A DNA stretch of 64,000 nt from Candidatus Woesearchaeota archaeon (GTDB lineage: Archaea; Nanobdellota; Nanobdellia; Pacearchaeales; GW2011-AR1). Location: NCBI GenBank assembly GCA_964409005.1, contig CAYPBR010000001.1:18383-82382 (forward strand), in the 5' to 3' direction. The position numbers and the translations under genes were made by a program. Positions 403-34,175 of the stretch are shown piece by piece (position 1 is the stretch's first letter; the number at the start of each line of letters is the position of its first letter). The notes under the pieces were generated by a model. It saw only the letters and a list, made by a program, of their open reading frames with translations, searched no databases and was not told the origin of the DNA.

Positions 403-1192
403 TCATCCTCATATGATTCTTTAACCTTTTTTTCATTACTTCATAATATTTTTTATCTTTTTCTATTAGAATGAATTTGCGTTTAAGATTTAAACAAGCT
501 ATTCCTGTCGTTCCCGATCCAGCACAATTATCTAAAACCAAATCACCTTTATTAGTATATGTTTTTATTAAATACTCAAATAATTCTACAGGTTTTTGAG
601 TAGGATGAATCCGATTTATACTATTACATGCACCTTTAGTCGATTTAATGTTTATTAAATTAACTGGGAATCTTAATTTTTCATTACGTTCTTTAGAAGT
701 CTTACTTCTGCCTATTCCTTGTGTACCATTTTTATCCATAGCATGATTTTTTATATCTCTTATTCTCATATTTTCTTTTTTTACTTTAGTCATTTGTGGA
801 TTATATCGTTTACTATTAAATATTACTATATCTTCAGTTACTCTTAATGGTTGACTTTTAGCAAAAGTAAAATTTCCTGACTTAAATTTATTCCATACCC
901 AGCAATATTTAAACATTTTTATATTACTTGATATTAATACCGTTGTGAAAGGCTGACTTGCTGTAAGTACTATAGCTCCATTATTCTTTATTATTCGTTT
1001 ATAATGATCCCACATTTTATTTAAATCAATTGCTACATCCCACTTACAAGCAGTCATTCCATGTCCATAAGGCATATCACAAAGGATCATGTCAATAGAA
1101 TTGTCCTCTATTTTATACATTGCTTTTAAGCAATCACCTAAAATTATTTTATTCATCCTCGTCGTCTTTTCTACCACGTAATAATTCTTCAT
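380..1192 (-). CDS. beta-class DNA amino-methyltransferase (N6-adenine or N4-cytosine)
   Basis: N-terminal 'SIDMILCDMPYG' is a DPPY-type motif IV. C-terminal 'LVLDNCAGSGTTGIAC' is SAM motif I (FxGxGTT). Motif IV precedes motif I, which defines the beta class. Confidence 0.85.
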   Translation of the reverse strand: MKNYYVVEKTTRMNKIILGDCLKAMYKIEDNSIDMILCDMPYGHGMTACKWDVAIDLNKMWDHYKRIIKNNGAIVLTASQPFTTVLISSNIKMFKYCWVWNKFKSGNFTFAKSQPLRVTEDIVIFNSKRYNPQMTKVKKENMRIRDIKNHAMDKNGTQGIGRSKTSKERNEKLRFPVNLINIKSTKGACNSINRIHPTQKPVELFEYLIKTYTNKGDLVLDNCAGSGTTGIACLNLKRKFILIEKDKKYYEVMKKRLKNHMRMNENTNNI

Positions 1193-3044
1193 TATGAAAA
1201 AACATACTTCTCAAAAAGTTTTCAGCATTAATGACAGATAAATTTTGTATTGTAGGTGAATCTTTAATATCCATAACACCTTTATCAATAGCTTCTTTTT
1301 CATCTACAGACATTCTAGGTATTAACTCTTTTTTTGATCTCTGTTCTTGATTAATCTCTGCTCTTGTTTTCCCAACAAATTCGCTAGTTCTATCACTATA
1401 ATACTGTAATATATTAGGATCAACTAGTTCTGCAAGTTTACAATAGGCTTCTGCAAGAAAAAAATGGTCAGGGCCTGACTCACGCCATTCGAATTTACCT
1501 CTATTACGATTCGCTACCTCTACAAATATCCTTGTTGAACTTAAAAGTTGTTGATAATATTCACCGTAGTCTTCCATAGAATCATTATAAATATCACTTG
1601 TATCTAATGGATTAAGCATTATTTGTTTAACAAAATCAGACTTCACTTCATCTAATATAAATGTTCGATCTATTGTAATACGCTTTTCCTTTTTCCATTT
1701 ATCACGCATTTTTCTAAGCGTCAATATCGTTTGACCTAATTTAAAATTACAGGAATATAACTTCGATATAGATTTTTTTATTCTTTCTACTTCTCTAATC
1801 TCTGGATGTTCATCAATTACCATATATTTTGTATTCTTTATTTTCTTTAAATAGTTTACTAAGTGCTGAGTCGTTTCAATTTTTCTCGCATCAATTAATT
1901 GTCTTTTTCCATTATTTAATGCTGCTCGTACTATAACATAATAATAAGTTCCTACATCAATTCCTATATAAATTCGTTTAAATGAATTAATATATACGGT
2001 TTGACCTTTCAATGTATAATTACTATCTTCTTCTGCCTTTTTCAATAATGAATAAGTTATTTTATTTTCCGATGATGAAAATGGTAATCCTAACTTAGAA
2101 TTAACAAATAACTGCATTTCTTTTGCGTTTCCAAGTGCTTTACCATATTGGTTAACTAATGTTTTTAATTCTATATTTGCTGAAAATAACTGACTTATTC
2201 TTCGCCCTTTTTTATCTTTATTTTTATATGTATCAACCCACAACCCCTTTTTCATTCTATTAATTTTAGTACCGCACTTTGTACATGCTACCCATACATT
2301 ATTGTCATCTTCACTTAATATTCTAAATGTTAATTCACTTGTTTTTTCTATTATATTTTTAAAGAAGTCCAGTACTTGCCAATGATTACAACTAGAACAA
2401 CGAACATTCCATAATCCCTGTGATGATTCCTGCCAGTGTGAATCTATACCCCAATTCTCTACTGAAGGATTCCCTATTCTTCTTATGAATTTATAATCTG
2501 AAGCATCTAATCTATCCGGTGCCATTTTTAAATTAGCTTGATCACACTTATCAACTTCATCGATGTATAAAACGTCAGCAGGATAACTAATAAAGTCAGC
2601 AGGACTATTTGATCCTACAAAGTTAAGCAATCCCTTTCCAAAATGTTTCAATCCTATAGAATCACTATCGCCAGAAGCATTTTTAATCAACTCTATATAA
2701 TATGGTACCGATTTAAGAAGCCGATTTAATCTGTCCTTCACAAACTTCCCTCTTAAATCAATATTAGGCATAACATATAATATTCTTAATCCTATTGACG
2801 CATCATGAAGCGATGACACAATCATCCATTCACTTAATCCACATTGTACTGATTTTTCAGTACAAATATCCCTCTCATCCAGCATATTATATAATGGAAT
2901 TAAAAATCTATACTTATCACCAAACTCCATCGGTTTATTATGTACATTTTTATGATGGAATCTGGCAAGCCATAATTGAGGTTTTCTTTTCCTCATTGAC
3001 TCCCTTCGCAAATCTAACTTTTTTTCTTTCATATCTACCAACAT
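1149..3044 (-). CDS. terL: terminase large subunit, lambda GpA family
   Basis: 'KSVQCGLSEWMI' matches the gpA Walker-A variant 'KSARVGYSKMLL'. 'VLYIDEVDKCD' is Walker-B-like. The zinc-finger pair 'CSSCNHW...CTKCGTK' matches gpA 'CPHCGEE...CEHNAC'. Confidence 0.8.
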   Translation of the reverse strand: MLVDMKEKKLDLRRESMRKRKPQLWLARFHHKNVHNKPMEFGDKYRFLIPLYNMLDERDICTEKSVQCGLSEWMIVSSLHDASIGLRILYVMPNIDLRGKFVKDRLNRLLKSVPYYIELIKNASGDSDSIGLKHFGKGLLNFVGSNSPADFISYPADVLYIDEVDKCDQANLKMAPDRLDASDYKFIRRIGNPSVENWGIDSHWQESSQGLWNVRCSSCNHWQVLDFFKNIIEKTSELTFRILSEDDNNVWVACTKCGTKINRMKKGLWVDTYKNKDKKGRRISQLFSANIELKTLVNQYGKALGNAKEMQLFVNSKLGLPFSSSENKITYSLLKKAEEDSNYTLKGQTVYINSFKRIYIGIDVGTYYYVIVRAALNNGKRQLIDARKIETTQHLVNYLKKIKNTKYMVIDEHPEIREVERIKKSISKLYSCNFKLGQTILTLRKMRDKWKKEKRITIDRTFILDEVKSDFVKQIMLNPLDTSDIYNDSMEDYGEYYQQLLSSTRIFVEVANRNRGKFEWRESGPDHFFLAEAYCKLAELVDPNILQYYSDRTSEFVGKTRAEINQEQRSKKELIPRMSVDEKEAIDKGVMDIKDSPTIQNLSVINAENFLRSMFFHNEELLRGRKDDEDE

Positions 3045-4162: not shown

Positions 4163-6040
4163 TTAACTTACCTCTTCATAAGTTCCTGGCTTTGCAAGTT
4201 CAACATCTATCCAATATACAGGTAAAAACTGTTTTGGATTTTTAGATACCCACTCAATATTTCTTAATCCGCCTACACCTTTCGGAGCATAAACTGTATC
4301 ATAGTCCTGAAGAAATTCATTACCACTTTGTCTACTTATATCATAATCTTGAAATAAAGTTTTCTTTTGCCCTAATGCGTTTTTACATACAAATAATACT
4401 CCCCTCGTTCCTATTTGTCTACTAAAGCCTTTACCTACATATTGTAACGACTTTGAACTATTCGATGATCCATAAATTCCGTCACCTATCATTCTACCTA
4501 CTTCAGGTTTTGTTACTTTAAATCCGCCCCTTGCAATCTTAGCAGCGTTCTTAAACGCCGTTCCGTGATATGAGAATGTTACATTCCCTATATCTTTTTC
4601 AACTTTTTTATAATCTTTATAATAACTTGTATCATCAATTTTAAAAATGTTATGTATTTTAAATCCAAAGCTTCCATGTTCATCTTTATCAAAGGTCGAC
4701 TTCATTTTATCGTATACTTTCTTTTGCTCTTTTGACGATGCATTACTTAATGAAAATGTTTTACGCTCTTCACCTTGCTCTGATAATGCCGATAACAGTT
4801 TCTTTTTTGCCGATTCTCCTTTATATGCCTGACTTCTTTTTTCTATAAATAACTTTCTTAATTCTTCAGCATCGTCTACTCCATAAGCTTCTTTTGCATT
4901 TATCAATTTAGAATTTTTTCTCATTTTAGGAAGTAGTATCTTATTTGTATAATATGCTGTATATAGCGCTTCAAACCATTTCTTTGATTTAGGATTATCT
5001 TTTTGAGTGCTCGTAATATCTCTTTTCAATTTCTTTACTACATCTAATTTTATATTTCCAATATCACTCATTATATTTTTATTCCTTTTCATAAAATCTT
5101 TACTTTTTTTCATCGGTTCTGTCTGCACATTAAAAGCATCAATCAATTGTTTTTTTTCTACAGCCGTTATACCTTTAGCTTCTTTAATTATTTTAATATT
5201 ATCTGTATTATCATCACTCCAATAATCAAGCATATAACCTTCATCGGATATAAGCGCTGAATATCTTTTTAATACAATTGGAATCGAGTCTACTATTTCA
5301 GCTCTATCCACTTGAGGCATCATACTTACTTTAGCACTATCAAAATCTTTATAATTATCAACAGTATATCCTCTTTGTTTAGCAACCTTCTTTAAAGTCT
5401 TATTATAATATTTATCATATATTTCTTTTCTTACATTATGTATTGCATTACGTGATCTACTTACTACATTATCTAATTTCTTACTTTCTTTTCTTAACGC
5501 TCGTACATTTTCATCCTTTGCATACTGTTTCAATAATATTTTTCTATATGGTTCTATTACATCTTTCATTTCCTTCGGCATTCCTGTAAACATTTTAACG
5601 CCGTACTTCTTTTCCATTTCTATTATCTCACCTAACTTTAATCCAATTTTATTTGTTGTATACTTACTTGATGATCCCATGCTAGGATGATAAATCCACT
5701 TTATATATCCCGGCAACTTACTATAATCAATTTTAATCGTCGACGCTTTAAATATACTTGCCATTTCATCGCTTACATATTTCAGCGACCTCGTATCTTT
5801 ACATAATATTCCAGTACTATCTAATATTTGCTTCTGCTCTTTATTTATTTTCGGTACTCCCACAACTTTTTCTTTAACAGTCTTTTTTCTTTCTACTGCT
5901 GCAGCCACTCCCACATACTTCATCACTCCAGCAACTTTCTTATACTTCAGTAACCTTCCCTTTATATTATATGTTACTACTTGACCCTCAGCAATTCTTC
6001 TTCTTTTTTGTGCCTTAACAAATAACATATCCTTCCTCAA
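4163..6040 (-). CDS. lysine-rich protein with a C-terminal PARP-like ADP-ribosyltransferase catalytic domain
   Basis: C-terminus matches the PARP/tankyrase catalytic core. 'YHGTAFKNAAKIARGGF' ~ 'FHGSPFVNAIIHKGF' and 'GDGIYGSSNSSKSLQY' ~ 'GAGIYFAENSSKSNQY'. 'LFVCKNALGQ' ~ 'LLLCRVTLGK' and 'NIEWVSK' ~ 'AEYVIYR' (catalytic Glu). The H-Y-E triad is present. Confidence 0.7.
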   Translation of the reverse strand: MRKDMLFVKAQKRRRIAEGQVVTYNIKGRLLKYKKVAGVMKYVGVAAAVERKKTVKEKVVGVPKINKEQKQILDSTGILCKDTRSLKYVSDEMASIFKASTIKIDYSKLPGYIKWIYHPSMGSSSKYTTNKIGLKLGEIIEMEKKYGVKMFTGMPKEMKDVIEPYRKILLKQYAKDENVRALRKESKKLDNVVSRSRNAIHNVRKEIYDKYYNKTLKKVAKQRGYTVDNYKDFDSAKVSMMPQVDRAEIVDSIPIVLKRYSALISDEGYMLDYWSDDNTDNIKIIKEAKGITAVEKKQLIDAFNVQTEPMKKSKDFMKRNKNIMSDIGNIKLDVVKKLKRDITSTQKDNPKSKKWFEALYTAYYTNKILLPKMRKNSKLINAKEAYGVDDAEELRKLFIEKRSQAYKGESAKKKLLSALSEQGEERKTFSLSNASSKEQKKVYDKMKSTFDKDEHGSFGFKIHNIFKIDDTSYYKDYKKVEKDIGNVTFSYHGTAFKNAAKIARGGFKVTKPEVGRMIGDGIYGSSNSSKSLQYVGKGFSRQIGTRGVLFVCKNALGQKKTLFQDYDISRQSGNEFLQDYDTVYAPKGVGGLRNIEWVSKNPKQFLPVYWIDVELAKPGTYEEVS

Positions 6041-6240: not shown

Positions 6241-6654
6241 TTATACCCTCTTCCCTATTATTTCTATATCACTTGAATCAACTTTTCCTAAAAGTTCACC
6301 ACATGATTCATTTTCTAAACTATAAATACCTTTACCTCTTATTTCAAATATACGCACTGTAAATCCACTTAATATATTATCCTTTATACGTACTATATCA
6401 CCGTCATGTATTTCTTTTTCATTTTTATCCACAAATTTTTCTTTTTTATCTATTATCTTTCTAATGAATGCTATTTGACTATCAACAGTAAGATGACAAT
6501 TAGAAAAGCTATTCTCAATTGCATCTAATTTATCTTTCACAAATCTCATTTCTTCAGTATGATCTTTTTCTTTTATCCAAACTTCGTAATCTGTACTTTG
6601 GCCTTTATTTAATTTCTCCATAAAGATCACTGCTGTACTAATATATCTATTCAT
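6241..6654 (-). CDS. MNRY-family paralog 1 (137 aa)
   Basis: One of three tandem paralogs starting MNRY. Shared motifs 'YEVWIKE.D' and 'DGDI.RI...FEI.G...YSLE...IG(K/R)(R/T)(V/I)'. Confidence 0.55.
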   Translation of the reverse strand: MNRYISTAVIFMEKLNKGQSTDYEVWIKEKDHTEEMRFVKDKLDAIENSFSNCHLTVDSQIAFIRKIIDKKEKFVDKNEKEIHDGDIVRIKDNILSGFTVRIFEIRGKGIYSLENESCGELLGKVDSSDIEIIGKRV

Positions 6655-7061
6655 TATATTGTCCTCCCTATCACTTCCATATCAATTGAGTCAACTTTTT
6701 TTAATGATTCAACATATAAGCCGCTTTCTAAACTATAAATATTACTACCTTTTATTTCAAATACACATAAACTATACTCAAATTTTATACGTGTTATATC
6801 GCCATCTTTTATTTCTCTACCATTTTTATCTAAATGCTTTTCTTCTCTATCTATTATATTTTGAATTCTCTCTACTTGAATCTCCGCGCTTGCATTTGAG
6901 TTCAAACATATTGCAATAAAATTCAATTTACTCTTTGTAAGTCTTTTCTCTTCAACATAATCTCTTTCTTTTATCCAAATTTCTTCTTCTTCATTCATTA
7001 TTGGATTGCCGTTTGGCCTAATCATCCACATACCTTGCTTACCGTAAATATATCTATTCAT
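6654..7061 (-). CDS. MNRY-family paralog 2 (135 aa)
   Basis: Tandem paralog; its start overlaps the stop of its neighbour. Confidence 0.55.
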   Translation of the reverse strand: MNRYIYGKQGMWMIRPNGNPIMNEEEEIWIKERDYVEEKRLTKSKLNFIAICLNSNASAEIQVERIQNIIDREEKHLDKNGREIKDGDITRIKFEYSLCVFEIKGSNIYSLESGLYVESLKKVDSIDMEVIGRTI

Positions 7062-7438
7062 TATACTGTCCTCCCTATCACTTTTATAGTTTTACAATCC
7101 GAATTCTCCAAAAAAGCAAATACAGTTTCATCCCCTTTTACACTAACAATACTGTCGTTATCCCGTATTTCAAATACGCCAATATTATCTATGCAAATAA
7201 TATCACCTTCAGCTATCATTCTTCCAGCTTTATCATAATAATCCCGTGGCCTCTCTATAATTAATCTAATTATAGTTGGGCCTTCCCCTTTTACCAAACA
7301 TTCTTCAATATCTCTCAACTGTTTTTTCATAAACTTTACATCTTCTTCTTTTATCCAAACTTCGTAATCTGTGTTTTCATTTTCATCTAACTTATGCATC
7401 CATTCCATATTATTAGTATATCTAGTATATCTATTCAT
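7061..7438 (-). CDS. MNRY-family paralog 3 (125 aa)
   Basis: Tandem paralog. Confidence 0.55.
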   Translation of the reverse strand: MNRYTRYTNNMEWMHKLDENENTDYEVWIKEEDVKFMKKQLRDIEECLVKGEGPTIIRLIIERPRDYYDKAGRMIAEGDIICIDNIGVFEIRDNDSIVSVKGDETVFAFLENSDCKTIKVIGRTV

Positions 7439-7977: not shown

Positions 7978-8205
7978 TCAATATTTATGAGTTTTATAAC
8001 TACATACCTGACTGATACAACATACAGTTTTATTAAATTTTTTAGCTATTTCATTCATTGACCATCCCTTACTTCTCAAATTTCTTATCTCACATGCCTG
8101 CTTAAATGTTAAATTTTTACTTTCTTTCTTTTCTGATTTCCCTAAATGTAACTTTCCATCCGTTACTGGTAAATTTGACACTCCAATTCCAATCTCAAAC
8201 TTCAT
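7978..8205 (-). CDS. small HTH DNA-binding protein (75 aa)
   Basis: 'IRNLRSKGWSMNEIAKKFNKT' is a helix-turn-helix of the sigma region-4 / LuxR type. Confidence 0.5.
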   Translation of the reverse strand: MKFEIGIGVSNLPVTDGKLHLGKSEKKESKNLTFKQACEIRNLRSKGWSMNEIAKKFNKTVCCISQVCSYKTHKY

Positions 8206-8366
8206 TATTTTTTTACCTTTCTAATTTCATCAACTTGATAACTACATACTTTTTTAACATATTCTCTTGACATTTTAAAGTGTTTTGAAAGCCTTACTAT
8301 ATTCCATCCACATCTCCGTAAAAATCTTATCCTTGTAGCTTTATTTTGTGCAATCTTACATTTCAT
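8205..8366 (-). CDS. small HTH protein (53 aa), paralog of 7978..8205
   Basis: Hand-translated: 'MKCKIAQNKATRIRFLRRCGWNIVRLSKHFKMSREYVKKVCSY...'. Aligns with the HTH of the downstream gene. Its TAA stop overlaps the next gene's ATG. Confidence 0.35.
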   Translation of the reverse strand: MKCKIAQNKATRIRFLRRCGWNIVRLSKHFKMSREYVKKVCSYQVDEIRKVKK

Positions 8367-8382
8367 TTTTTTATCTTCTCTT

Positions 8383-8658
8383 TTACCTTTTTAACTCATC
8401 TTCAATCATTTCTATTAACTTTTTATTAGATAGCTTTTTATTGTAATTATTTACATTTGACTCAATTAACATTTTAGTACAATATATCTTTTTCCTATAG
8501 TTCGCAATCACTTCATCTTTTCTATCAAGTTCTTCTCGCTGTTGTTTTATTAATGCTTCCGCAAACATCTCATCATATAATTTACCTGCTCTAAGTGCGC
8601 CAAAAATAGCCGCTACTACAATTAAACTAAATATCCATACAGGTATTATCCACCACAT
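8383..8658 (-). CDS. membrane protein with an N-terminal TM helix (91 aa)
   Basis: 'WWIIPVWIFSLIVVAAIFGAL' is a hydrophobic helix followed by a charged coiled-coil region. Confidence 0.5.
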   Translation of the reverse strand: MWWIIPVWIFSLIVVAAIFGALRAGKLYDEMFAEALIKQQREELDRKDEVIANYRKKIYCTKMLIESNVNNYNKKLSNKKLIEMIEDELKR

Positions 8659-8682
8659 TTTATTCCTCCTTTAATCTTTCAA

Positions 8683-9216
8683 TTGGTTTTCTTGTCTTCT
8701 CTGGCTCGCTTTATCCCTCTGGTTTTCTTTTTCAGTGTGACTCGCTCTTATAGTCTGGTTTTCTTTTTATTATAGGCTCGCTTCCTCCTCTTGGTTTTCT
8801 CATTTTGACTGGCTCGCTTTACCCATCTGGTTTTCTCATCGAATCTGACCCGCTTCTTTTTTCTGGTTTTCTTATTGATCCCGGCTCGCTCTATGCCTCT
8901 GGTTTTCTTCCCCTCAGTGACTCACTCCTTTTTACTGGTTTTCTCATTGACTTCGGCTCGCTCATGCATGCTGGTTTTCTCTCAAAAAATGGCTCGCTTC
9001 TCTTTGCTGGTTTTCTCGTTGAACCCGGCTCGCTCTGTTTGCTTGGTTTTCTCATTTATTTTGACTCGCTCTTTACGCCTGGTTTTCTCATGTACCTTGA
9101 CTCACTCAAATGAATTGGTTTTCTTTCTTTCTTTGGTTCGCTTTACCCATCTGGTTTTCTTCCTTATTCAGGCTTCATTATGCTTATTCAAATATTCTTC
9201 TTTATATGGTTTTCTT
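8683..9216. repeat. tandem array of about 13 imperfect 36-bp direct repeats, iteron-like (candidate replication origin or centromere-like site)
   Basis: Each unit has invariant blocks GCTCGCT and CTGGTTTTCT separated by variable 8-nt and 10-nt spacers. Half-units lie at both ends. The array is intergenic between minus-strand genes. Confidence 0.8.
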
Positions 9217-9914
9217 ATTGATAGCCCTCTTGACAATCTCCATTCCCTTTGAAAATCAATTTCAAACATTTTTACCATATATCTCATTGAAGCATTATGT
9301 CTATGAAGTAAACTTACTCCCCAATCTGCACTTATTAATCTATTTTTATTGTTATCATAAAATCTTCTATAGGGAGAATTCGTTTTAAGAAATGAAGGAG
9401 CTAACACCCCTAAGAGTTTCGATTTTAAAAATGTATCATAAGGTGATCTAAAGCCCGGAGTGAGTTTATCAATAGGTATCAAAGTATCAGTTTTTACCCA
9501 TTCTCCATGATCCCCTTTTTTCTTATCAAACTTATAACCGAAAGTATCTCCGGTTGCTATACCGCTATAAGCCCACATCTTAGATACGGTAGAGCATTTT
9601 TCTATATCTATTCTTGAAAGCAAAACACTACCTAAGGTCGGCCCTATACCAACTTGATCTTTTAACCATTCATTCCATATATTAAACTCCGGCAATGTCG
9701 ATTCAATAAACTTACCCATATCTTTTTCTAATTTTTTAAATCCTTTAAGGTGTAAAAAAAAGATATTTTCTTCACTCTCCATATAATTGCCTGCTCTTAT
9801 TCTACTTTCTAATGAAATACGCATTTTTTGATAATCATAAAACGTATTCACAGCATCTTTCAAAATCTTTTTGTACTTGTCTTCATGCTCGTTACTTTTT
9901 CTTTTGGTTTTCAT
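9168..9914 (-). CDS. helix-hairpin-helix motif protein (248 aa) adjacent to the iteron array
   Basis: 'VGIGPTLGSVLLSRI' fits the HhH consensus (hxxhxGIGxxxAxxIh). No other domain is recognisable. Confidence 0.45.
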   Translation of the reverse strand: MKTKRKSNEHEDKYKKILKDAVNTFYDYQKMRISLESRIRAGNYMESEENIFFLHLKGFKKLEKDMGKFIESTLPEFNIWNEWLKDQVGIGPTLGSVLLSRIDIEKCSTVSKMWAYSGIATGDTFGYKFDKKKGDHGEWVKTDTLIPIDKLTPGFRSPYDTFLKSKLLGVLAPSFLKTNSPYRRFYDNNKNRLISADWGVSLLHRHNASMRYMVKMFEIDFQREWRLSRGLSIRKPYKEEYLNKHNEA

Positions 9915-9924
9915 TTTTTTTCTC

Positions 9925-10161
9925 CTATTGAGGTTTTTTTAGTTTTAACAATCCTATAATAATCAATCCAAACACAATAAAAACAAATAAGTATTTGAAT
10001 GTAACAAGCGGCATACTCATCATTCCTACGCCTACTCCCAATAACACTAACCATATAGTCCACAATGCAATATGTTGGTTAAGTGTCATTGAAGCCTGAT
10101 CGTTCTTCTTTAAGATTTTATCACACATCCGATTTATCTTTGCTCGCCTTTTCGCTATCAT
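9925..10161 (-). CDS. small membrane protein (78 aa, two TM helices)
   Basis: Two hydrophobic segments: 'ALWTIWLVLLGVGVGMMSM' and 'LFVFIVFGLIIIGLL'. Confidence 0.45.
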   Translation of the reverse strand: MIAKRRAKINRMCDKILKKNDQASMTLNQHIALWTIWLVLLGVGVGMMSMPLVTFKYLFVFIVFGLIIIGLLKLKKPQ

Positions 10162-10261
10162 TATTATTACTCACCTTTAGTACTTGTTACATCTAATTTA
10201 TTACAATCCTTCTTTTGCTACTATGTTTTTTTTACCGAATAGATAAACAGATAGTTACTTT

Positions 10262-10609
10262 CTAACTGATTCTTTCTATTGTTTTACCTTCATCATTAAG
10301 CAAATAAGCCCGACTATTAAAGGCAATGCATAACTCATTTCTACCCTTACCATTAAGATCGTAAGACGAGTGAAAACGAGTAACAATTACCTCACATTGA
10401 GTAGGATCATCTTCAGTTTCCCGTCTTATCCATTGTGCATATAAAGCATTTACATCAAGTCGAGGACTTTTAGTAGAATTAAAATCTCTCTCGAAAATTA
10501 AATTTTCTTCAGTTATAAAATATTCATTATGGTTAAATGAAATACTAGTAATATTATCATAATAATACCACTTTGATTTAATAACTGTATCTTGTATCTT
10601 TAAAATCAT
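10262..10609 (-). CDS. hypothetical protein (115 aa)
   Basis: Minus-strand ORF. Confidence 0.45.
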   Translation of the reverse strand: MILKIQDTVIKSKWYYYDNITSISFNHNEYFITEENLIFERDFNSTKSPRLDVNALYAQWIRRETEDDPTQCEVIVTRFHSSYDLNGKGRNELCIAFNSRAYLLNDEGKTIERIS

Positions 10610-20732: not shown

Positions 20733-21225
20733 GTTTTATTACCTCCTTAGATAATTCGTCTGCTCCTTCAAATAAGTTTACTAACATAATAATAACTTCA
20801 CGTGAGTCTAAACACTCCAACCCTTTAAAATCTCTCATCAAATCCCTATGATTAATATAATTAATTAAATCGGTTATCTCGCTTTTAATATGTTCATTAA
20901 TATCACATGTTACACTATTCTCAAAGCTTATTTGAAAAGAATAGTTTCCATATTTTTTCAAACCAAATCTTCTTTTATCAGCGGTAAAATCTTGTATTCT
21001 TTTAGGTATTACATACTGGTTTTCTCTTTTTATTATAGCTTCTTCATAGATTGTTTCATAATCATGTAATTTCTTTTTTTCATCCATTTCGATTTCATGA
21101 TCTTCTTTAGTAAATTCAAATCCTATAATACTTTTTTTATCCTGCAAATCACTACGTAATGGATCAACCAAAAAAGCGCCATTACTAGTTCCTACACTTT
21201 TATTATCTACTTTATCTACTCCCAT
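20716..21225 (-). CDS. hypothetical protein (169 aa)
   Basis: Minus-strand ORF. Confidence 0.4.
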   Translation of the reverse strand: MGVDKVDNKSVGTSNGAFLVDPLRSDLQDKKSIIGFEFTKEDHEIEMDEKKKLHDYETIYEEAIIKRENQYVIPKRIQDFTADKRRFGLKKYGNYSFQISFENSVTCDINEHIKSEITDLINYINHRDLMRDFKGLECLDSREVIIMLVNLFEGADELSKEVIKHESKK

Positions 21226-30180: not shown

Positions 30181-30762
30181 TTAGAAGTCTTCGTCCAATA
30201 GTTCCTCGTCCGACTTCTCTTGGTAATCCTCGTCCTGTTGCTCCTCTTCTTCCACGAACTCCTCGTCGAGCTCCTCGTCCGCAAACTCTTCTTTGCCCGG
30301 CTTTACTTTCGGCTTTGCTTTCGGCTTTGCTTTTGGCTTTACTACTGCTGTCTTTTTTTTTACGACCGGCTTTGCTTTCGGCTTTGTTTTTGACTTTACT
30401 ACTGCTGTCTTTTTTTTTACGACCGGCTTCTTTACAACAGACTTCTTTGTAGTAGAACCGCGAACAGTACCATATCCCTCTTTGACAGCCATTTTTGCAA
30501 CAACCTGAGCTGCTGAACTACAACCAAGTTCCTTTAATTTAGCAGTAGCCTTCTTCCGGTTACCATCTGTCTTTGTAAGTACCTCTCTTGCAACCTGTGA
30601 ATAGCTTTTACCACCGGCAACATTAGCAGAAGGTCTATATCCAGGATTCTTCTTGGTTACAGACTTCTTTTTTGCAACAGGATTTTTTGCCGTTGTTTTC
30701 TTTGCAACGGGCTTTTTTGTCGCTGTTTTCTTTTTCTTTACAACCATTTTCTTCTTCGCCAT
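30181..30762 (-). CDS. histone H1-like lysine-rich DNA-binding protein with an acidic C-terminal tail
   Basis: AKKKxVVKKK(T/P) repeats; internal tandem DNA repeat near 30290-30430; C-terminus 'DEELDEEFVEEEEQQDEDYQEKSDEELLDEDF'. Confidence 0.55.
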   Translation of the reverse strand: MAKKKMVVKKKKTATKKPVAKKTTAKNPVAKKKSVTKKNPGYRPSANVAGGKSYSQVAREVLTKTDGNRKKATAKLKELGCSSAAQVVAKMAVKEGYGTVRGSTTKKSVVKKPVVKKKTAVVKSKTKPKAKPVVKKKTAVVKPKAKPKAKPKVKPGKEEFADEELDEEFVEEEEQQDEDYQEKSDEELLDEDF

Positions 30763-30845: not shown

Positions 30846-33800
30846 TTACAAATTAATATTATTTAGCAAATCTCTCAATTTTCTAAATGGCTTTTTTACC
30901 TTTTCAAAGCCAATTCCAACAAGAATTTTGCCATTACTTAATTTCCCCTGTGCAACATAATAATCATCATTACTAGCTTCATCCAAAACTTTAGCACACA
31001 TCTTATATATATTATGAAATACAACTATTTCAGTTTGATTATTTTCCCAGTCTTTTCCAACAAGAAATATCATTTTCTTATTATTCTTATCAACTATATT
31101 TTTTTTACTTAATATTTTAAAACAATAATATTGATCTCCACTATCTAAATGCTGATTTAATAAAGCTGTTTTTTTATTTTTAATTATATAACTAAGTTTT
31201 TTTATCGTTTCGACAGATTCACTACAAAAAATATTAAACTTACAAACTTCTTTCTCCAATTTCCTTTTCTCTTCCATTGTAAAATCACCTCTATCTTTAT
31301 ATTTATTCCAATGTTTCCATAATTCCTTTCTTACAACCTTCTCATCTTTATTCTTATACTTAGTTTTAACTACCGACCAATTAACCCAAAAATCATGTAG
31401 TGCTTTTCTATTGCCGTTTAAATTATCAAAGGCACCTATATCTATAAGATTTAAAATAGCAGTCTTATTGGATTTCATTTTCAATTCTTTTATACAAAAA
31501 TCAGAAAAAGAAATAAACGGTTTTGCCTTAGATATTTCAAACGGTAACGCACTTCCAACTCCATGTACAATTGACAAAGGTACTCTTATATTTTCACCTT
31601 CCATATAAAATTTATCAGTAGATTTACCTATATCAATTTTATTAAAAACATTAGCATTAGTTTTACGTTTCATAAAATTCATATAAACTTCCAGCTCATT
31701 TCTCTTTTTAAAATCTTGAACTGATTCTTTATTTTCAACAGTATTAAGTAAAGCAGTAAAATAATATTTTGTATAATATTCTCTCATGTATAGTGTCTGC
31801 ATTGCTATGATAGAATACGATACAGAATGACTCCTATTAAAACTATACTCAGCAAAATAAGCTAATTTATCAATCAACTTATCAATTGCTTTATCTTCCA
31901 TTTGAGCATTTTCTCTTGCTCCCTTTCTAAGTTTAGTCATTGTAACAACTAATCTTTTATCCAATTTTTTATTTTCAGTACTTGTTTCCATTAAATATAA
32001 ATCTTTAAAAATCTTTCTTGATTTATCGGCTTCTTCAAGCGTGAAACCACCAAGTTTATGAAGTATCTCTATAAATTGTTCTTGATACGCAATAGTTCCA
32101 TAAGTACTATTAAGAATCTCACCGAAAATTGGCACTTTATAATGTTCGCTAAATTTCTTTCCTAACTGTTTAAGTTTTCTTCTTCTATGTACATATTTCA
32201 TATGCTCATTTGCCTTTACCACTGCAGGTCTATATAGTGCATTTATAACCGCCACATCTTCAAAATTTTCAGGCTGTACTTCTTTTAAAAAACTATTTAT
32301 TCCATAAGCCTCAAATTGAAAAATACCAATACAATCTTCATTGCATAGTACTTCATATAAATGTTTATCATATATATAAGCCGATACATCATTAAGATCA
32401 ATTTGTATACCAAGATCATCTTCAACCATCTGTACAGCATTTTTCAATATACTTACATTTTCAAGTCCTAATATATCAATCTTCAATACTCCAAGTTGTG
32501 TTAATTCTCTAAAATCTTTTCCCTCTTTAAATGCTGTTACTATATCTCCTTTAATTTTAGACACTGGTATATAATCATAAATAGGACTTGGAGTAATAAC
32601 TGTACCTCCAGCATGTCTACTAAATTGTCTTATTCTACCTATTAATCTATCTGCCATTAAAAACATTTCTTTATTCTTTTTAAAATAAGTCTTTTCTTTA
32701 TTTGTCCATTCTTTGTCTTTTATTTGATCTTTAAGATAATAAATAGCACCAACATTATCATTATCTATCTTTTTAATTATAGTTCTAAACTCATCATCTT
32801 TATCTTTTTCTTTTACACGGGCCATATCCCACAATGCACCCTTTGTCCTAAATGTACTAAATGTAATTATATGTGCAACTCGATCTTCGCCATATTTCTG
32901 TTTTAAGTACTCTTCAATTTCAGATTTACGACTACTTTCAAAATCTAAGTCAATATCAGGAGCATCATTTCTATCCTTATTTAAAAATCTTTCAAACAAT
33001 AAATTAAATTTTATAGGATCAACTTTTGTTATTTCCAATAAATAAGAAATAAGCGAGCCAGCCGCACTCCCTCTTCCCGGCCCAACTGCTATATCTTTCT
33101 TATTACAAAAATTAATAATATCATGTACAATCAAAAAATAATCAGCATAATTTTTATCTATAATTACCTTTAATTCTTTTTTAGTTCTTTCAATATAATT
33201 TTCAGGTATTTTCAATCCGTTAAATATTCTTTTTAATCCTTTTTTACACTCTACTTTAAGCATAACATTTGAATTTACTTCATATCCATCTTTATCAATA
33301 AAAGCAGGAAACTTATTTTCTTCATCAGATAAACTAAAATTACATTTGTCAGCAACATCTTTAGTAGTTTTAATTGCATTATCCATTACATGCTTTGCAA
33401 ATCCATATCTTAACTTTTTGTTTACCTCATAATAATATTCAGGTGTATGAAAATATAATTGTCTAGCATCAAATCTAAAAATGCTTTTATCACTTTCTTT
33501 TTTTCTTTGATTAATCATTAATAAATAATCTTGTAATTCAACATCATTCTTTTTTATATAATGACAATCACCAGTAGCTACATAGTCAATTCCATGCTGT
33601 TGACATAAATATTGAATACCTCTTGTTACATCTACTTGATCTTTTATTTCATTAAAATGTAATTCTCCATAAAAATCATCTTTAAATACTTTTTTCCATC
33701 TTAAAAATATTTTTTCTGCTTTTTGCATATTTCCATTTATTAAAGGTTCTGCAATTATACCTCCCATACACGCTGTAAGGCATATTAACCCTTTTGAATG

Positions 33801-34175
33801 TTTTAATACAAAATCTGTTGTAGTTCTTCCCTTATAGTAAAATCCATTCTTAAATGAATCATAATTTATTTTAAGTAAATTTTTATACCCTGTTTTATTC
33901 TTTGCTAAAAGGACTACATGCTTATTAGTTCTTTTTTCCTTCCCTTTTCCATTATCTCTATTGTCATTCAAATAAAATTCACATCCAATAATAGGTTTAA
34001 TTCCATTCTTCTTACAGCTATTTGAAAATCTCAATACACCTGACATGCTACCATGATCTGCTATTGCAATTGCTTTCATCCCGACTTCTTTAGCTTTTTC
34101 CACGTATTCTTCAGGACTCGGAATTCCGTCAAGCAACGAATAATAAGTATGAATATGTAATTGACAAAAATTCAT
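30846..34175 (-). CDS. dnaE: DNA polymerase III alpha subunit (DnaE-type, with N-terminal PHP domain)
   Basis: 'QLHIHTYYSLLDGIPSPEEYVEKAKEVGMKAIAIADHGSMSGV' is the PHP domain. 'GPGRGSAAGSLISYLLEITKVDP' is the Pol III alpha palm. Length 1109 aa. Confidence 0.9.
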   Translation of the reverse strand: MNFCQLHIHTYYSLLDGIPSPEEYVEKAKEVGMKAIAIADHGSMSGVLRFSNSCKKNGIKPIIGCEFYLNDNRDNGKGKEKRTNKHVVLLAKNKTGYKNLLKINYDSFKNGFYYKGRTTTDFVLKHSKGLICLTACMGGIIAEPLINGNMQKAEKIFLRWKKVFKDDFYGELHFNEIKDQVDVTRGIQYLCQQHGIDYVATGDCHYIKKNDVELQDYLLMINQRKKESDKSIFRFDARQLYFHTPEYYYEVNKKLRYGFAKHVMDNAIKTTKDVADKCNFSLSDEENKFPAFIDKDGYEVNSNVMLKVECKKGLKRIFNGLKIPENYIERTKKELKVIIDKNYADYFLIVHDIINFCNKKDIAVGPGRGSAAGSLISYLLEITKVDPIKFNLLFERFLNKDRNDAPDIDLDFESSRKSEIEEYLKQKYGEDRVAHIITFSTFRTKGALWDMARVKEKDKDDEFRTIIKKIDNDNVGAIYYLKDQIKDKEWTNKEKTYFKKNKEMFLMADRLIGRIRQFSRHAGGTVITPSPIYDYIPVSKIKGDIVTAFKEGKDFRELTQLGVLKIDILGLENVSILKNAVQMVEDDLGIQIDLNDVSAYIYDKHLYEVLCNEDCIGIFQFEAYGINSFLKEVQPENFEDVAVINALYRPAVVKANEHMKYVHRRRKLKQLGKKFSEHYKVPIFGEILNSTYGTIAYQEQFIEILHKLGGFTLEEADKSRKIFKDLYLMETSTENKKLDKRLVVTMTKLRKGARENAQMEDKAIDKLIDKLAYFAEYSFNRSHSVSYSIIAMQTLYMREYYTKYYFTALLNTVENKESVQDFKKRNELEVYMNFMKRKTNANVFNKIDIGKSTDKFYMEGENIRVPLSIVHGVGSALPFEISKAKPFISFSDFCIKELKMKSNKTAILNLIDIGAFDNLNGNRKALHDFWVNWSVVKTKYKNKDEKVVRKELWKHWNKYKDRGDFTMEEKRKLEKEVCKFNIFCSESVETIKKLSYIIKNKKTALLNQHLDSGDQYYCFKILSKKNIVDKNNKKMIFLVGKDWENNQTEIVVFHNIYKMCAKVLDEASNDDYYVAQGKLSNGKILVGIGFEKVKKPFRKLRDLLNNINL

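What the first reader, a model, noticed from the sequence alone, without database searches (positions are those of the whole stretch)
8683..9216. Array of ~13 36-bp iteron-like direct repeats with invariant GCTCGCT and CTGGTTTTCT cores
The array is a perfectly phased 36-bp tandem in an intergenic gap. Two short blocks are absolutely conserved while the 8-nt and 10-nt spacers vary freely. That is the signature of a protein-binding iteron array (replication origin, partition centromere or packaging site). It is not a coding repeat or a CRISPR array. Next to it lies a 248-aa helix-hairpin-helix protein (9168..9914), a candidate binding partner. Conservation at the DNA level with free spacers argues against the plus-strand 'GSL...GFL' ORFs being real.
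Basis: seen in the sequence. Interest (0 to 1): 0.7.

Follow-up and report, generated by a model that had tools for sequence, protein, structure and literature searches.

The report
Phage TIGR guide-RNA array with TasA
The 36-bp repeat block is a TIGR array, a recently described (2025) CRISPR-like string of short guide RNAs, and the small gene next to it encodes its RNA-binding partner TasA; it is a clear but ordinary new example in a phage, not a set of replication or partition iterons.

Summary
Fourteen perfectly phased 36-bp units lie at 8675-9174, and none is expected by chance. The iteron reading is not supported. Read on the minus strand, the strand of every gene here, each unit is edge repeat AGCGAGCCA, 9-nt spacer A, loop repeat AGAAAACCA, 9-nt spacer B. 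That is the published dual-repeat TIGR architecture. The edge repeat is identical to that of the characterised Salicola phage CGphi29 TIGR-TasH array. The adjacent 248-aa ORF (9168-9914, minus) is a Tas protein: it scores 111 bits against NCBIfam TIGR_Tas_endo (cut-off 100), it matches TasR and TasH in the PDB by sequence, and its AlphaFold model (pLDDT 93.7) best matches TasR, then TasH, IS621 and Nop5. It has no nuclease domain, so it is TasA. At least 25 of 28 related loci carry period-36 AG...CCA arrays beside tas on the tas strand, and the closest relative has the same repeats with different spacers. The likely mechanism is inferred: the array is co-transcribed with tasA, cut into 36-nt tigRNAs, and TasA dimers then bind 18-bp DNA targets without cutting them and repress them. 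No target was found. This locus departs from the typical layout in having no terminator and no 3' half-edge. It is a new member of a known kind, of low to moderate interest.

The parts
9168..9914 (-). tasA: a 248-aa TIGR-associated protein made of a coiled-coil hairpin plus a Nop domain, with no nuclease domain
   Evidence: ORF. NCBIfam NF052498.1 TIGR_Tas_endo, 111.1 bits against a cut-off of 100, E 7e-32. PDB phmmer hits: TaTasR 9mty E 3.9e-14 and SpTasH E 4e-6; the alignment starts at TasR residue 117, after the RuvC domain. AF2 model pLDDT 93.7. Foldseek best hits are 9mty TasR, 9w04/9vzx TasH, then IS621 and Nop5. 30% identity to FpTasA, E 4e-21.
8675..9174 (-). Dual-repeat TIGR array: a 5' half edge repeat followed by 14 units of [spacer A 9 nt][loop AGAAAACCA][spacer B 9 nt][edge AGCGAGCCA]. 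Thirteen units are bounded by edge repeats on both sides.
   Evidence: Unit table; phasing; period from TRF.
9170..9174 (-). 5'-truncated edge repeat AGCCT, overlapping the tasA stop codon TGA (9170..9168)
   Evidence: Relatives show the same layout: AGTCT+TGA in L007 and TAGCCA in L004. [quoted passage not shown]
8684..9160 (-). 14 loop repeats AGAAAACCA (plus-strand TGGTTTTCT) at 8684+36k to 8692+36k, k=0..13, invariant. AG is box D, CCA is box C, and AAAA is the A-rich loop.
   Evidence: Compare the TaTIGR loop UGAAACCCA and the SpTIGR loop AGACAACCA, and the box C/D description.
8702..9142 (-). 13 edge repeats at 8702+36k to 8710+36k, k=0..12, with consensus AGCGAGCCA. Variants: AGCGAGCCG x3, AGCGAGTCA x2, AGTGAGTCA x2, AGCGAACCA, AGCGGGTCA, AGCGAGCCT. 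The expected processing site is AGCG|AGCCA.
   Evidence: The consensus is identical to the SpTIGR edge repeat AGCGAGCCA. The synthetic TaTasR tigRNA runs from AGCCA to UGCG.
8675..8683 (-). Last spacer B (ATTGAAAGA). It is not followed by an edge repeat. The RBS AAAGGAGG and the ATG (8658) of the next gene follow directly, with no terminator.
9180..9206 (-). Codons for the C-terminal loop Y237-KEEYLNK-H245, the candidate Tyr/His dyad for pre-tigRNA processing
   Evidence: Y237 is invariant in 26 homologs. It aligns with SpTasH Y289, which is catalytic together with H296. The His is at +8 here, against +7 in SpTasH and most homologs.
9207..9215 (-). Out-of-phase copy of the loop-repeat 9-mer AGAAAACCA inside tasA, encoding R234-K235-P236. 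It is not part of a TIGR unit.

Best explanation
This is a TIGR-Tas locus of the TasA (nuclease-free), dual-repeat type, carried by a tailed phage.

Shown here:
- The 248-aa protein is a Tas-family Nop-domain protein.
- The array has the TIGR dual-repeat anatomy on the tasA strand.
- The gene-array pairing recurs in relatives.

Inferred from published work on homologous systems:
- The array is transcribed from the minus strand, probably as part of the tasA operon.
- The precursor is cut within each edge repeat (AGCG|AGCCA), probably by the C-terminal Tyr237/His245 loop of TasA.
- This gives about 13 tigRNAs of 36 nt, of the form 5'-AGCCA-spacerA-AGAAAACCA-spacerB-AGCG-3'.
- Each RNP recognises an 18-bp DNA site that reads spacerA followed by the reverse complement of spacerB. 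Spacer A pairs with one strand and spacer B with the other.
- TasA has no nuclease, so binding would block transcription or another DNA transaction at the target rather than cut it.

The natural targets (host, rival element or the phage itself) are unknown.
For: Protein:
- NCBIfam equivalog TIGR_Tas_endo scores above its curated cut-off.
- There are sequence hits to TaTasR (9mty, 331 aa; identity of this entry confirmed) and to SpTasH.
- The confident AF2 model best matches TasR and TasH, then the IS621 bridge-RNA recombinase and Nop5.
- It aligns with FpTasA at E 4e-21.

Array:
- The period is 36 nt, with two alternating 9-nt repeats and 9-nt spacers, in 14 units. The published definition is 8-12-nt repeats, 9-nt spacers and 5-15 units.
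- Both repeats start with AG and end with CCA. This matches the 'AG box D' and N8A spacers of SpTIGR.
- The edge repeat is identical to SpTIGR and the loop differs by one base.
- The loop is A-rich and the edge has a potential extra C3-G6 pair, as described for TasR arrays.
- The array begins with a 5' half edge.

Family and other tests:
- At least 25 of 28 loci encoding relatives have period-36 AG..CCA arrays next to tas on the same strand.
- L007, at 78% amino-acid identity, has the same repeats and different spacers.
- The transcript is unstructured, z = +1.55, as reported for dual-repeat arrays.
- The candidate catalytic Tyr is invariant.
- TasA proteins have been shown to bind 36-nt tigRNAs and to act as RNA-guided repressors.
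Against: - There are no expression or processing data for this locus.
- The array lacks the typical 3' half edge and terminator and runs straight into the next gene's RBS. The 14th unit is therefore probably not matured.
- The His of the proposed dyad is one residue further from the Tyr than in SpTasH.
- Pfam gives no hit for the protein, and PHROGs labels the family 'transposase'.
- No target was found. In the window there is no spacerA+rc(spacerB) match with 2 or fewer mismatches, and matches with 3 mismatches are at the control level, 9 against 7.1.
- Two target patterns scanned in IMG/VR hit only unrelated contigs at about chance frequency.
Confidence: 0.93

Rival explanations
1. Iteron array: the repeats are DNA binding sites for a replication initiator, a partition protein or a terminase (origin, centromere or pac site).
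For: The repeats are phased and intergenic, with conserved cores and variable linkers. TIGR-TasA loci are occasionally operonic with ParB-like genes in the literature.
Against: - The adjacent protein is a Tas/Nop RNA-binding protein, not a Rep, ParB or TerS.
- None of the four neighbouring ORFs scanned matched a ParB or Rep family in Pfam or PHROGs.
- GC and AT skew run monotonically through the site.
- The unit is two different 9-mers with the box C/D pattern of guide RNAs, identical to an experimentally processed TIGR array.
- Co-orientation with tas holds in the arrays read in full and in nearly every consensus derived. That is a property of a transcript, not of a symmetric DNA site.
- The terminase gene lies 6 kb away.
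Confidence: 0.02
2. Coding repeat: the array encodes, or is the decayed remnant of, a protein with a 12-residue repeat. Candidates are 'RKPxxxSEPxxx' on the minus strand, as a C-terminal extension of the 248-aa protein, or the plus-strand 'GSL..GFL' ORFs.
For: The period is 36 = 12 codons. There are mechanical ORFs of 54-125 aa. The loop 9-mer also occurs in frame in tasA as RKP. Some homolog gene calls run on into arrays (P0012, P0026).
Against: - Every frame has at least 2 stops within the array here, and at least 1 in each of 12 related arrays.
- The RKP frame has stops in 6 of 13 units (by reading).
- The 9-mers are invariant at all three codon positions, while the spacers change without any synonymous pattern.
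- The array is frame-shifted relative to tasA: 55 nt separate the in-gene copy from the first array copy.
- Every ORF of 250 aa or more in the window is on the minus strand, which argues against the plus-strand ORFs.
Confidence: 0.02
3. A CRISPR or mini-CRISPR array, or an anti-CRISPR decoy repeat RNA.
For: It is an interspaced repeat array in a phage. There is a weak Rfam CRISPR-DR60 hit at 22.3 bits, E 0.45.
Against: - The hit is far below the gathering score of 45.
- There are two alternating 9-nt repeats with 9-nt spacers, instead of one 25-36-nt repeat with spacers of about 30 nt.
- No cas genes are present. PADLOC finds nothing for the neighbours scanned except a Cas8a hit at E 0.006 and 14 bits, which is noise.
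Confidence: 0.01

Closest known systems
SpTIGR-TasH of Salicola phage CGphi29 (Faure et al. 2025, PMC12045711; structures 9w03, 9w04, 21kl)
   Same: - It is phage-borne, with a dual-repeat array of 36-nt units.
- The edge repeat AGCGAGCCA is identical, and the loop is AGACAACCA against AGAAAACCA here.
- It has an AG box D and a CCA box C, and its spacers end in a conserved purine (N8A there, N8R here).
- The Nop domain is homologous.
- The catalytic Tyr aligns.
   Different: TasH carries an N-terminal HNH nuclease and cuts DNA. The protein here has no nuclease domain (TasA). The His of the processing dyad is shifted by one residue. The array here has no terminator.
TIGR-TasA systems: FpTasA (Flavonifractor plautii), MbTasA, PlTasA (PMC12045711; bioRxiv 10.64898/2026.09.09.750476 and 10.64898/2026.08.11.744272)
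   Same: These are solo coiled-coil plus Nop proteins. The protein here has 30% identity to FpTasA. FpTasA binds 36-nt tigRNAs from a downstream dual-repeat array. TasA binds DNA under RNA guidance and represses transcription.
   Different: The sequence is divergent. The FpTIGR box C is CCN. MbTasA and PlTasA, whose DNA binding, repression and structure were studied, come from other branches, at least one of which may use stem-loop guides. Nothing has been tested for this locus.
TaTIGR-TasR (Thermoproteota archaeon; PDB 9mty)
   Same: It is the best sequence and fold match in the PDB. Its edge repeat UGCGAGCCA and loop UGAAACCCA differ from the repeats here mainly in the first base. It supplied the target geometry spacerA+rc(spacerB).
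   Different: It has an N-terminal RuvC nuclease (residues 1 to about 116) that is absent here, and its box D is UG rather than AG.
IS110/IS621 bridge-RNA recombinases and archaeal box C/D sRNP protein Nop5
   Same: They share the Nop-type RNA-binding fold (Foldseek E 2e-4 for IS621; E 0.36 for Nop5 1nt2). Homologs of the protein here hit Pfam Transposase_20. [quoted passage not shown]
   Different: There is no DEDD/RuvC transposase domain, no fibrillarin partner and no single structured bridge RNA. The guides come in a tandem array.
Plasmid and phage iterons (lambda ori, P1 incA/incC, RepA-type origins); comparison rests on my general knowledge
   Same: Both are tandem, phased direct repeats in non-coding DNA.
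   Different: Iterons are single motifs of about 17-22 bp, bound as DNA by an adjacent initiator, and are usually accompanied by an AT-rich unwinding element. Here two different 9-mers alternate with spacers, the neighbour is an RNA-binding Nop protein, and there is no skew signal.

Membership tests
TIGR-Tas system (dual-repeat type) | A Tas protein with a Nop domain and a coiled-coil dimerisation hairpin | tested here: met
   NCBIfam NF052498.1, 111.1 bits against cut-off 100. PDB hits to TasR and TasH. AF2 model with two long N-terminal helices plus a Nop fold, with best Foldseek hits TasR and TasH.
TIGR-Tas system (dual-repeat type) | An array of two distinct alternating 8-12-nt repeats separated by spacers of about 9 nt, with a 36-nt unit and typically 5-15 units | tested here: met
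   9+9+9+9 nt in 14 units. Definition.
TIGR-Tas system (dual-repeat type) | Both repeats carry box D at the 5' end and box C (CCA) at the 3' end, matching between edge and loop. The loop repeat is A-rich and the edge repeat has an extra base pair. | tested here: met
   AG....CCA in both repeats. The loop is AG-AAAA-CCA. The edge AGCGAGCCA has a possible C3-G6 pair, with wobble variants (U3-G6, G2-U7) in 5 units and a C-A mismatch in 1. The edge is identical to that of SpTIGR.
TIGR-Tas system (dual-repeat type) | The array lies next to tas and is co-oriented with it, and the association recurs in homologs | tested here: met
   The array starts inside the tasA stop codon on the same strand. At least 25 of 28 related loci carry such arrays.
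TIGR-Tas system (dual-repeat type) | [quoted passage not shown] | tested here: inconclusive
   The 5' half edge AGCCT is present. There is no 3' AGCG half edge and no terminator, and the RBS of the next gene follows. Relatives L008 and L009 do end with AGCG plus a T-rich stretch or terminator.
TIGR-Tas system (dual-repeat type) | A Tyr/His processing dyad in the C-terminal loop of dual-repeat Tas proteins | tested here: inconclusive
   Y237 is invariant and aligns with SpTasH Y289. The His is present but at +8 (H245) rather than +7; the same shift is seen in the nearest relatives P0002-P0004.
TIGR-Tas system (dual-repeat type) | The array is transcribed and processed into 36-nt tigRNAs that are bound by Tas | not testable with these tools
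   This needs small-RNA sequencing or a pull-down. The only indirect support is the unstructured transcript, z +1.55.
TIGR-Tas system (dual-repeat type) | Tandem-spacer recognition of DNA targets (spacer A on one strand, spacer B on the other) | tested here: inconclusive
   The geometry was taken from the TaTasR target. No match above control was found in the window or in two IMG/VR scans. The host and the remaining roughly 32 kb of the 96-kb source contig were not available.
TasA subtype (nuclease-free) | No HNH or RuvC domain N-terminal to the coiled coil | tested here: met
   Only 20 residues precede the region that aligns with TasR residue 117. The model is coiled coil plus Nop only.
Iteron-type origin or centromere | Adjacent initiator or partition protein, an AT-rich unwinding element, and a skew inflection or strand switch | tested here: not met
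   The neighbour is Tas. The other neighbours scanned have no Rep or ParB match. The skew is monotonic, and every ORF of 250 aa or more is on one strand.
CRISPR array | A single repeat of 25-36 nt or more, spacers of about 30 nt, cas genes, and an Rfam CRISPR-DR model at or above its gathering score | tested here: not met

The most novel reading that the evidence does not exclude
This phage may use a nuclease-free TIGR-TasA system with about 13 guides as an RNA-guided silencer of host or rival-phage genes during infection. Because the array sits inside a polycistronic early-gene operon with no terminator, TasA-dependent cutting of the array would also sever tasA from the downstream genes on the transcript. 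Guide maturation would then be coupled to operon expression. The purine-rich N8R spacers would point to targets with purine-then-pyrimidine strand asymmetry. None of this is shown. The evidence does not exclude it, and the natural role of TasA is an open question in the literature.
Probability: 0.15. Interest if true: 0.55.

Novelty: new member of a known kind. Interest (0 to 1): 0.25.

Why it matters
TIGR-Tas systems were described only in 2025, and their natural targets and biological roles are unknown. A complete TasA locus in a 96-kb phage contig, with 13 intact guides and a repeat set almost identical to the biochemically characterised SpTIGR, would be a convenient natural case for asking what a phage TasA targets, once the host is known. 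For the scan itself, the case shows that a 36-bp 'iteron-like' array with two short conserved cores next to a small protein labelled 'HhH' or 'transposase' should be read first as a TIGR array. Standard Pfam and PHROG labels (no hit, or 'transposase') hide this.

Tried and rejected
- DNA similarity of 8000-10500 to INPHARED phages gave no match.
- Pfam gave no hit for the protein. PADLOC gave none. PHROGs gave only 'transposase'.
- Rfam at E <= 1 gave only a sub-threshold CRISPR-DR60 hit.
- The promoter and terminator scan found nothing above shuffle level and no terminator after the array.
- Self-target search in the window used four spacer arrangements, gaps of 0-2 and up to 3 mismatches, with mismatched A/B pairs as control. 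The correct A+rc(B) geometry showed no enrichment. The rc(A)+B arrangement showed 16 against 7.9 at 3 mismatches, but that is the wrong geometry according to the TaTasR target. An offset-free search for paired spacer hits also showed no peak.
- IMG/VR scans for the tigRNA5 and tigRNA3 targets returned 8 hits and 1 hit. The 8 hits fall into 4 unrelated sequence families with GC 0.35-0.59, which I judge to be chance.
- Attempts to recover the rest of the source contig or close phage relatives failed. The exact protein is not on record for context look-up. The GTDB scan returned only distant relatives. The DNA polymerase has no close relative in IMG/VR, and in GenBank phages the nearest are about 32% identical. 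The host therefore remains unknown.
- The peptide KMWAYSGIATG from this protein was not found in the held parts of the supplementary tables of Faure et al. Table S1 was cut when stored, so absence is not proven.
- No tRNAs were found in the window.

Full report

Yes. On the plus strand, TGGTTTTCT occurs 14 times at an exact 36-bp spacing (8684 ... 9152). One further copy at 9207 is out of phase. The only other exact copy in the 64 kb is at 21017. A composite pattern of both cores, AGAAAACCA-N9-AGCGAGCCA on the minus strand with up to 2 mismatches, gives 13 hits, all in the array. One hundred dinucleotide-preserving shuffles gave none. Tandem Repeats Finder reports periods of 36, 72 and 108.

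- Only the TGGTTTTCT core is invariant.
- The second core varies at several positions.
- The 'free' spacers have a purine at their last position in 14/14 units on the minus strand. They are purine-enriched (71% against 60% for the strand, p about 0.001), and one spacer is duplicated.

**2. Context**

Every ORF of 250 aa or more in the window is on the minus strand, and GC skew is negative throughout with no inflection. The window is a roughly 30% GC tailed phage. It encodes a large terminase (1149-3044), a PolIII-alpha-like DNA polymerase (30846-34175) and helicases. The source contig is 96 kb.

The array fills the gap between the 248-aa ORF 9168-9914 (minus) and the next minus-strand gene, 8383-8658.

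**3. Anatomy on the gene strand**

Read on the minus strand, the array is:
- a half repeat AGCCT (9174..9170), overlapping the TGA stop of the 248-aa ORF;
- then 14 units of [9-nt spacer A][AGAAAACCA][9-nt spacer B][AGCGAGCCA].

Both repeats start with AG and end with CCA. One has an A-rich centre. The other can form an extra C3-G6 pair.

The 14th unit is not followed by a second-type repeat. The Shine-Dalgarno sequence and ATG of the next gene follow directly, and there is no terminator.

**4. The neighbouring protein**

Pfam finds nothing and PHROGs calls the family 'transposase'. Other evidence is clear:
- NCBIfam's equivalog model NF052498.1 'TIGR-Tas system RNA-guided endonuclease' scores 111.1 bits, above its cut-off of 100.
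- A sequence search of the PDB hits 9mty (E 3.9e-14) and TasH entries (E 4e-6). Entry 9mty is the 331-residue TaTasR of Faure et al..
- An AlphaFold2 model built on 26 homologs is confident (pLDDT 93.7, pTM 0.86). It shows two long N-terminal helices followed by a helical domain.
- Foldseek ranks TIGR-TasR first, then eight or so TasH chains, then the IS621/ISCro4 bridge-RNA recombinases, then Nop5.
- The alignment to TasR begins at TasR residue 117, after its RuvC domain, and at residue 21 here. There is no room for a nuclease domain, so this is the TasA architecture.
- It is 30% identical (E 4e-21) to FpTasA, the TasA shown to bind 36-nt tigRNAs.
- Tyr237 is invariant in the 26 homologs. It aligns with SpTasH Tyr289, one half of the Tyr/His dyad that processes pre-tigRNA. 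The His lies at +8 here (H245) instead of +7.

**5. Comparison with the published definition**

Faure et al. 2025 (PMC12045711) define TIGR arrays as follows:
- two distinct alternating 8-12-nt repeats (edge and loop), interspaced by 9-nt spacers A and B;
- usually 5-15 units, upstream or downstream of a Nop-domain tas gene;
- a 5'-truncated edge repeat at the start;
- processing into 36-nt tigRNAs whose ends lie in the middle of the edge repeats;
- both repeats start with box D and end with box C (CCA), the loop repeat is A-rich, and the edge repeat has an extra base pair.

Their supplementary tables add detail:
- The TaTasR tigRNA1 is AGCCA-N9-UGAAACCCA-N9-UGCG.
- The Salicola phage CGphi29 array is AGCGAGCCA-N9-AGACAACCA-N9, with an 'AG box D' and spacers that end in a conserved A.

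The window's edge repeat is identical to the SpTIGR edge repeat. Its loop repeat differs by one base, and its spacers are N8R. The match is therefore feature for feature. The one exception is the missing 3' half edge and terminator.

**6. Relatives**

Homologs at 25-78% identity were collected from IMG/VR, Logan, JGI and GTDB contigs. At least 25 of 28 loci carry period-36 arrays of two AG...CCA repeats immediately upstream and/or downstream of tas, on the tas strand.

- The nearest relative, L007 (78% amino-acid identity), has the same half edge over its stop codon and the same repeats, but different spacers.
- L008 and L009 end their arrays with AGCG plus a T-rich stretch or terminator.

Cores are conserved and spacers are not, which fits guide arrays as well as it would fit iterons.

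**7. Rivals**

- Coding repeat: every reading frame has stops in the array, here and in 12 related arrays. The 9-mers are invariant at all codon positions.
- CRISPR: the only Rfam hit is a sub-threshold CRISPR-DR60 match, and there are no cas genes.
- Iterons, origin or centromere: there is no initiator or ParB neighbour among the ORFs scanned, no skew inflection, and the strand-specific association with an RNA-binding protein argues for a transcript.

The array RNA is less structured than shuffled controls (z +1.55). This fits the dual-repeat rather than the stem-loop TIGR type.

**8. Mechanism**

Steps 4-6 above are shown. The following steps are inferred from homologous systems:
- The array is co-transcribed with tasA.
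- A TasA dimer binds box C/D of the loop and edge repeats.
- The precursor is cut at AGCG|AGCCA, plausibly by the Tyr237/His245 loop, giving 13 tigRNAs of 36 nt.
- Each RNP binds an 18-bp site that reads spacerA+rc(spacerB). This geometry comes from the TaTasR target oligonucleotide.
- Without a nuclease, the outcome is expected to be occupancy and repression, as shown for MbTasA.

**9. Targets**

I searched the window for A+rc(B) sites with gaps of 0-2 nt. There was none with 2 or fewer mismatches. There were 9 with 3 mismatches, against 7.1 for mismatched A/B pairings. An offset-free search showed no peak.

Two guides scanned against IMG/VR hit a few unrelated contigs, at about the number an 18-mer should hit by chance. 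The host is unknown, and no close phage relatives were retrievable. The literature states the same difficulty.

**10. Verdict**

The repeat array is real and functional-looking, but it is a textbook dual-repeat TIGR array with a TasA gene. This kind of system was described in 2025 and has since been catalogued in thousands of loci. It is a new member of a known kind.

The locus-specific details of some interest are:
- the absence of a terminator and 3' half edge, which places the array inside an operon;
- the overlap of the first half edge with the tasA stop codon;
- the shifted His of the proposed dyad;
- the purine-rich N8R spacers.

Noticed in passing
window 9207-9215 (minus strand), inside tasA: An exact copy of the loop-repeat 9-mer AGAAAACCA lies in frame in tasA. 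It encodes R234-K-P, immediately before the invariant Tyr237. The same 9-mer sits at the same codons in L008 (53% amino-acid identity), and AGAAAATCA in L007. It could simply reflect preferred codons for RKP, or it could be a trace of how the array arose from, or recombines with, the 3' end of the gene.
   Followed up: partly
window 8675-9169, spacers of the array: On the transcribed strand the spacers are 71% purine, against 60% for the strand as a whole (p about 0.001). Both spacers end in a purine in 14/14 units. Spacer B starts with a purine in 14/14. B1 = B10 = GATGGGTAA, and B13 differs from it by 2 bases. This is unexplained. It may reflect target bias or RNA-level constraints.
   Followed up: partly
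window 8658-8683: The array runs directly into the RBS (AAAGGAGG) and ATG of a 91-aa ORF whose N-terminus is hydrophobic by eye (8383-8658, minus). There is no terminator, so tigRNA processing would cut a polycistronic transcript.
   Followed up: no
window 4163-6040 (minus): A 625-aa protein with a C-terminal PARP-type ADP-ribosyltransferase catalytic domain (Pfam PF00644, E 1.3e-16) lies 3 kb downstream of the TIGR locus.
   Followed up: no
window 6241-7438 and 7978-8366 (minus): Three tandem paralogous genes of 125-137 aa all begin MNRY. Two tandem small genes of 53 and 75 aa look similar by eye and share a C-terminal 'CSY' motif. These are local gene duplications of unknown function.
   Followed up: no
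window 30181-30762 (minus), tandem repeat 30310-30429: A 193-aa lysine-rich protein (repeats of the type KKPVAKK and KPKAKPK) has an acidic C-terminal tail. It contains a 57-bp tandem repeat with 96% matches and 12-bp sub-repeats, just downstream of the DNA polymerase gene. It may be a histone-like DNA-binding protein.
   Followed up: no
whole window: All ORFs of 250 aa or more are on the minus strand, and GC skew is strongly negative (-0.15 to -0.52) in every 2-kb bin. No tRNAs were found. The nearest DNA polymerase relatives are about 32% identical human faecal phage contigs, so the phage lineage and host are unknown.
   Followed up: partly
homologs P0012 and P0026; loci L006 1417-1790 and L013 11559-13587: Some database gene calls for Tas homologs carry C-terminal 'SEP...' tails, which are ORF calls running into TIGR arrays. 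L006 shows a period-36 segment inside the region matched by tas, and L013 has six separate arrays over about 2 kb downstream.
   Followed up: no
GenBank phages H23/H24 (Ralstonia phage phiRSL1 13564-14169) and H25 (Microcystis phage Mvi-JY20 21457-22029): Cultured phages encode Tas homologs at 27-30% identity. They are annotated 'hypothetical protein' or 'transposase'. I did not check them for arrays.
   Followed up: no
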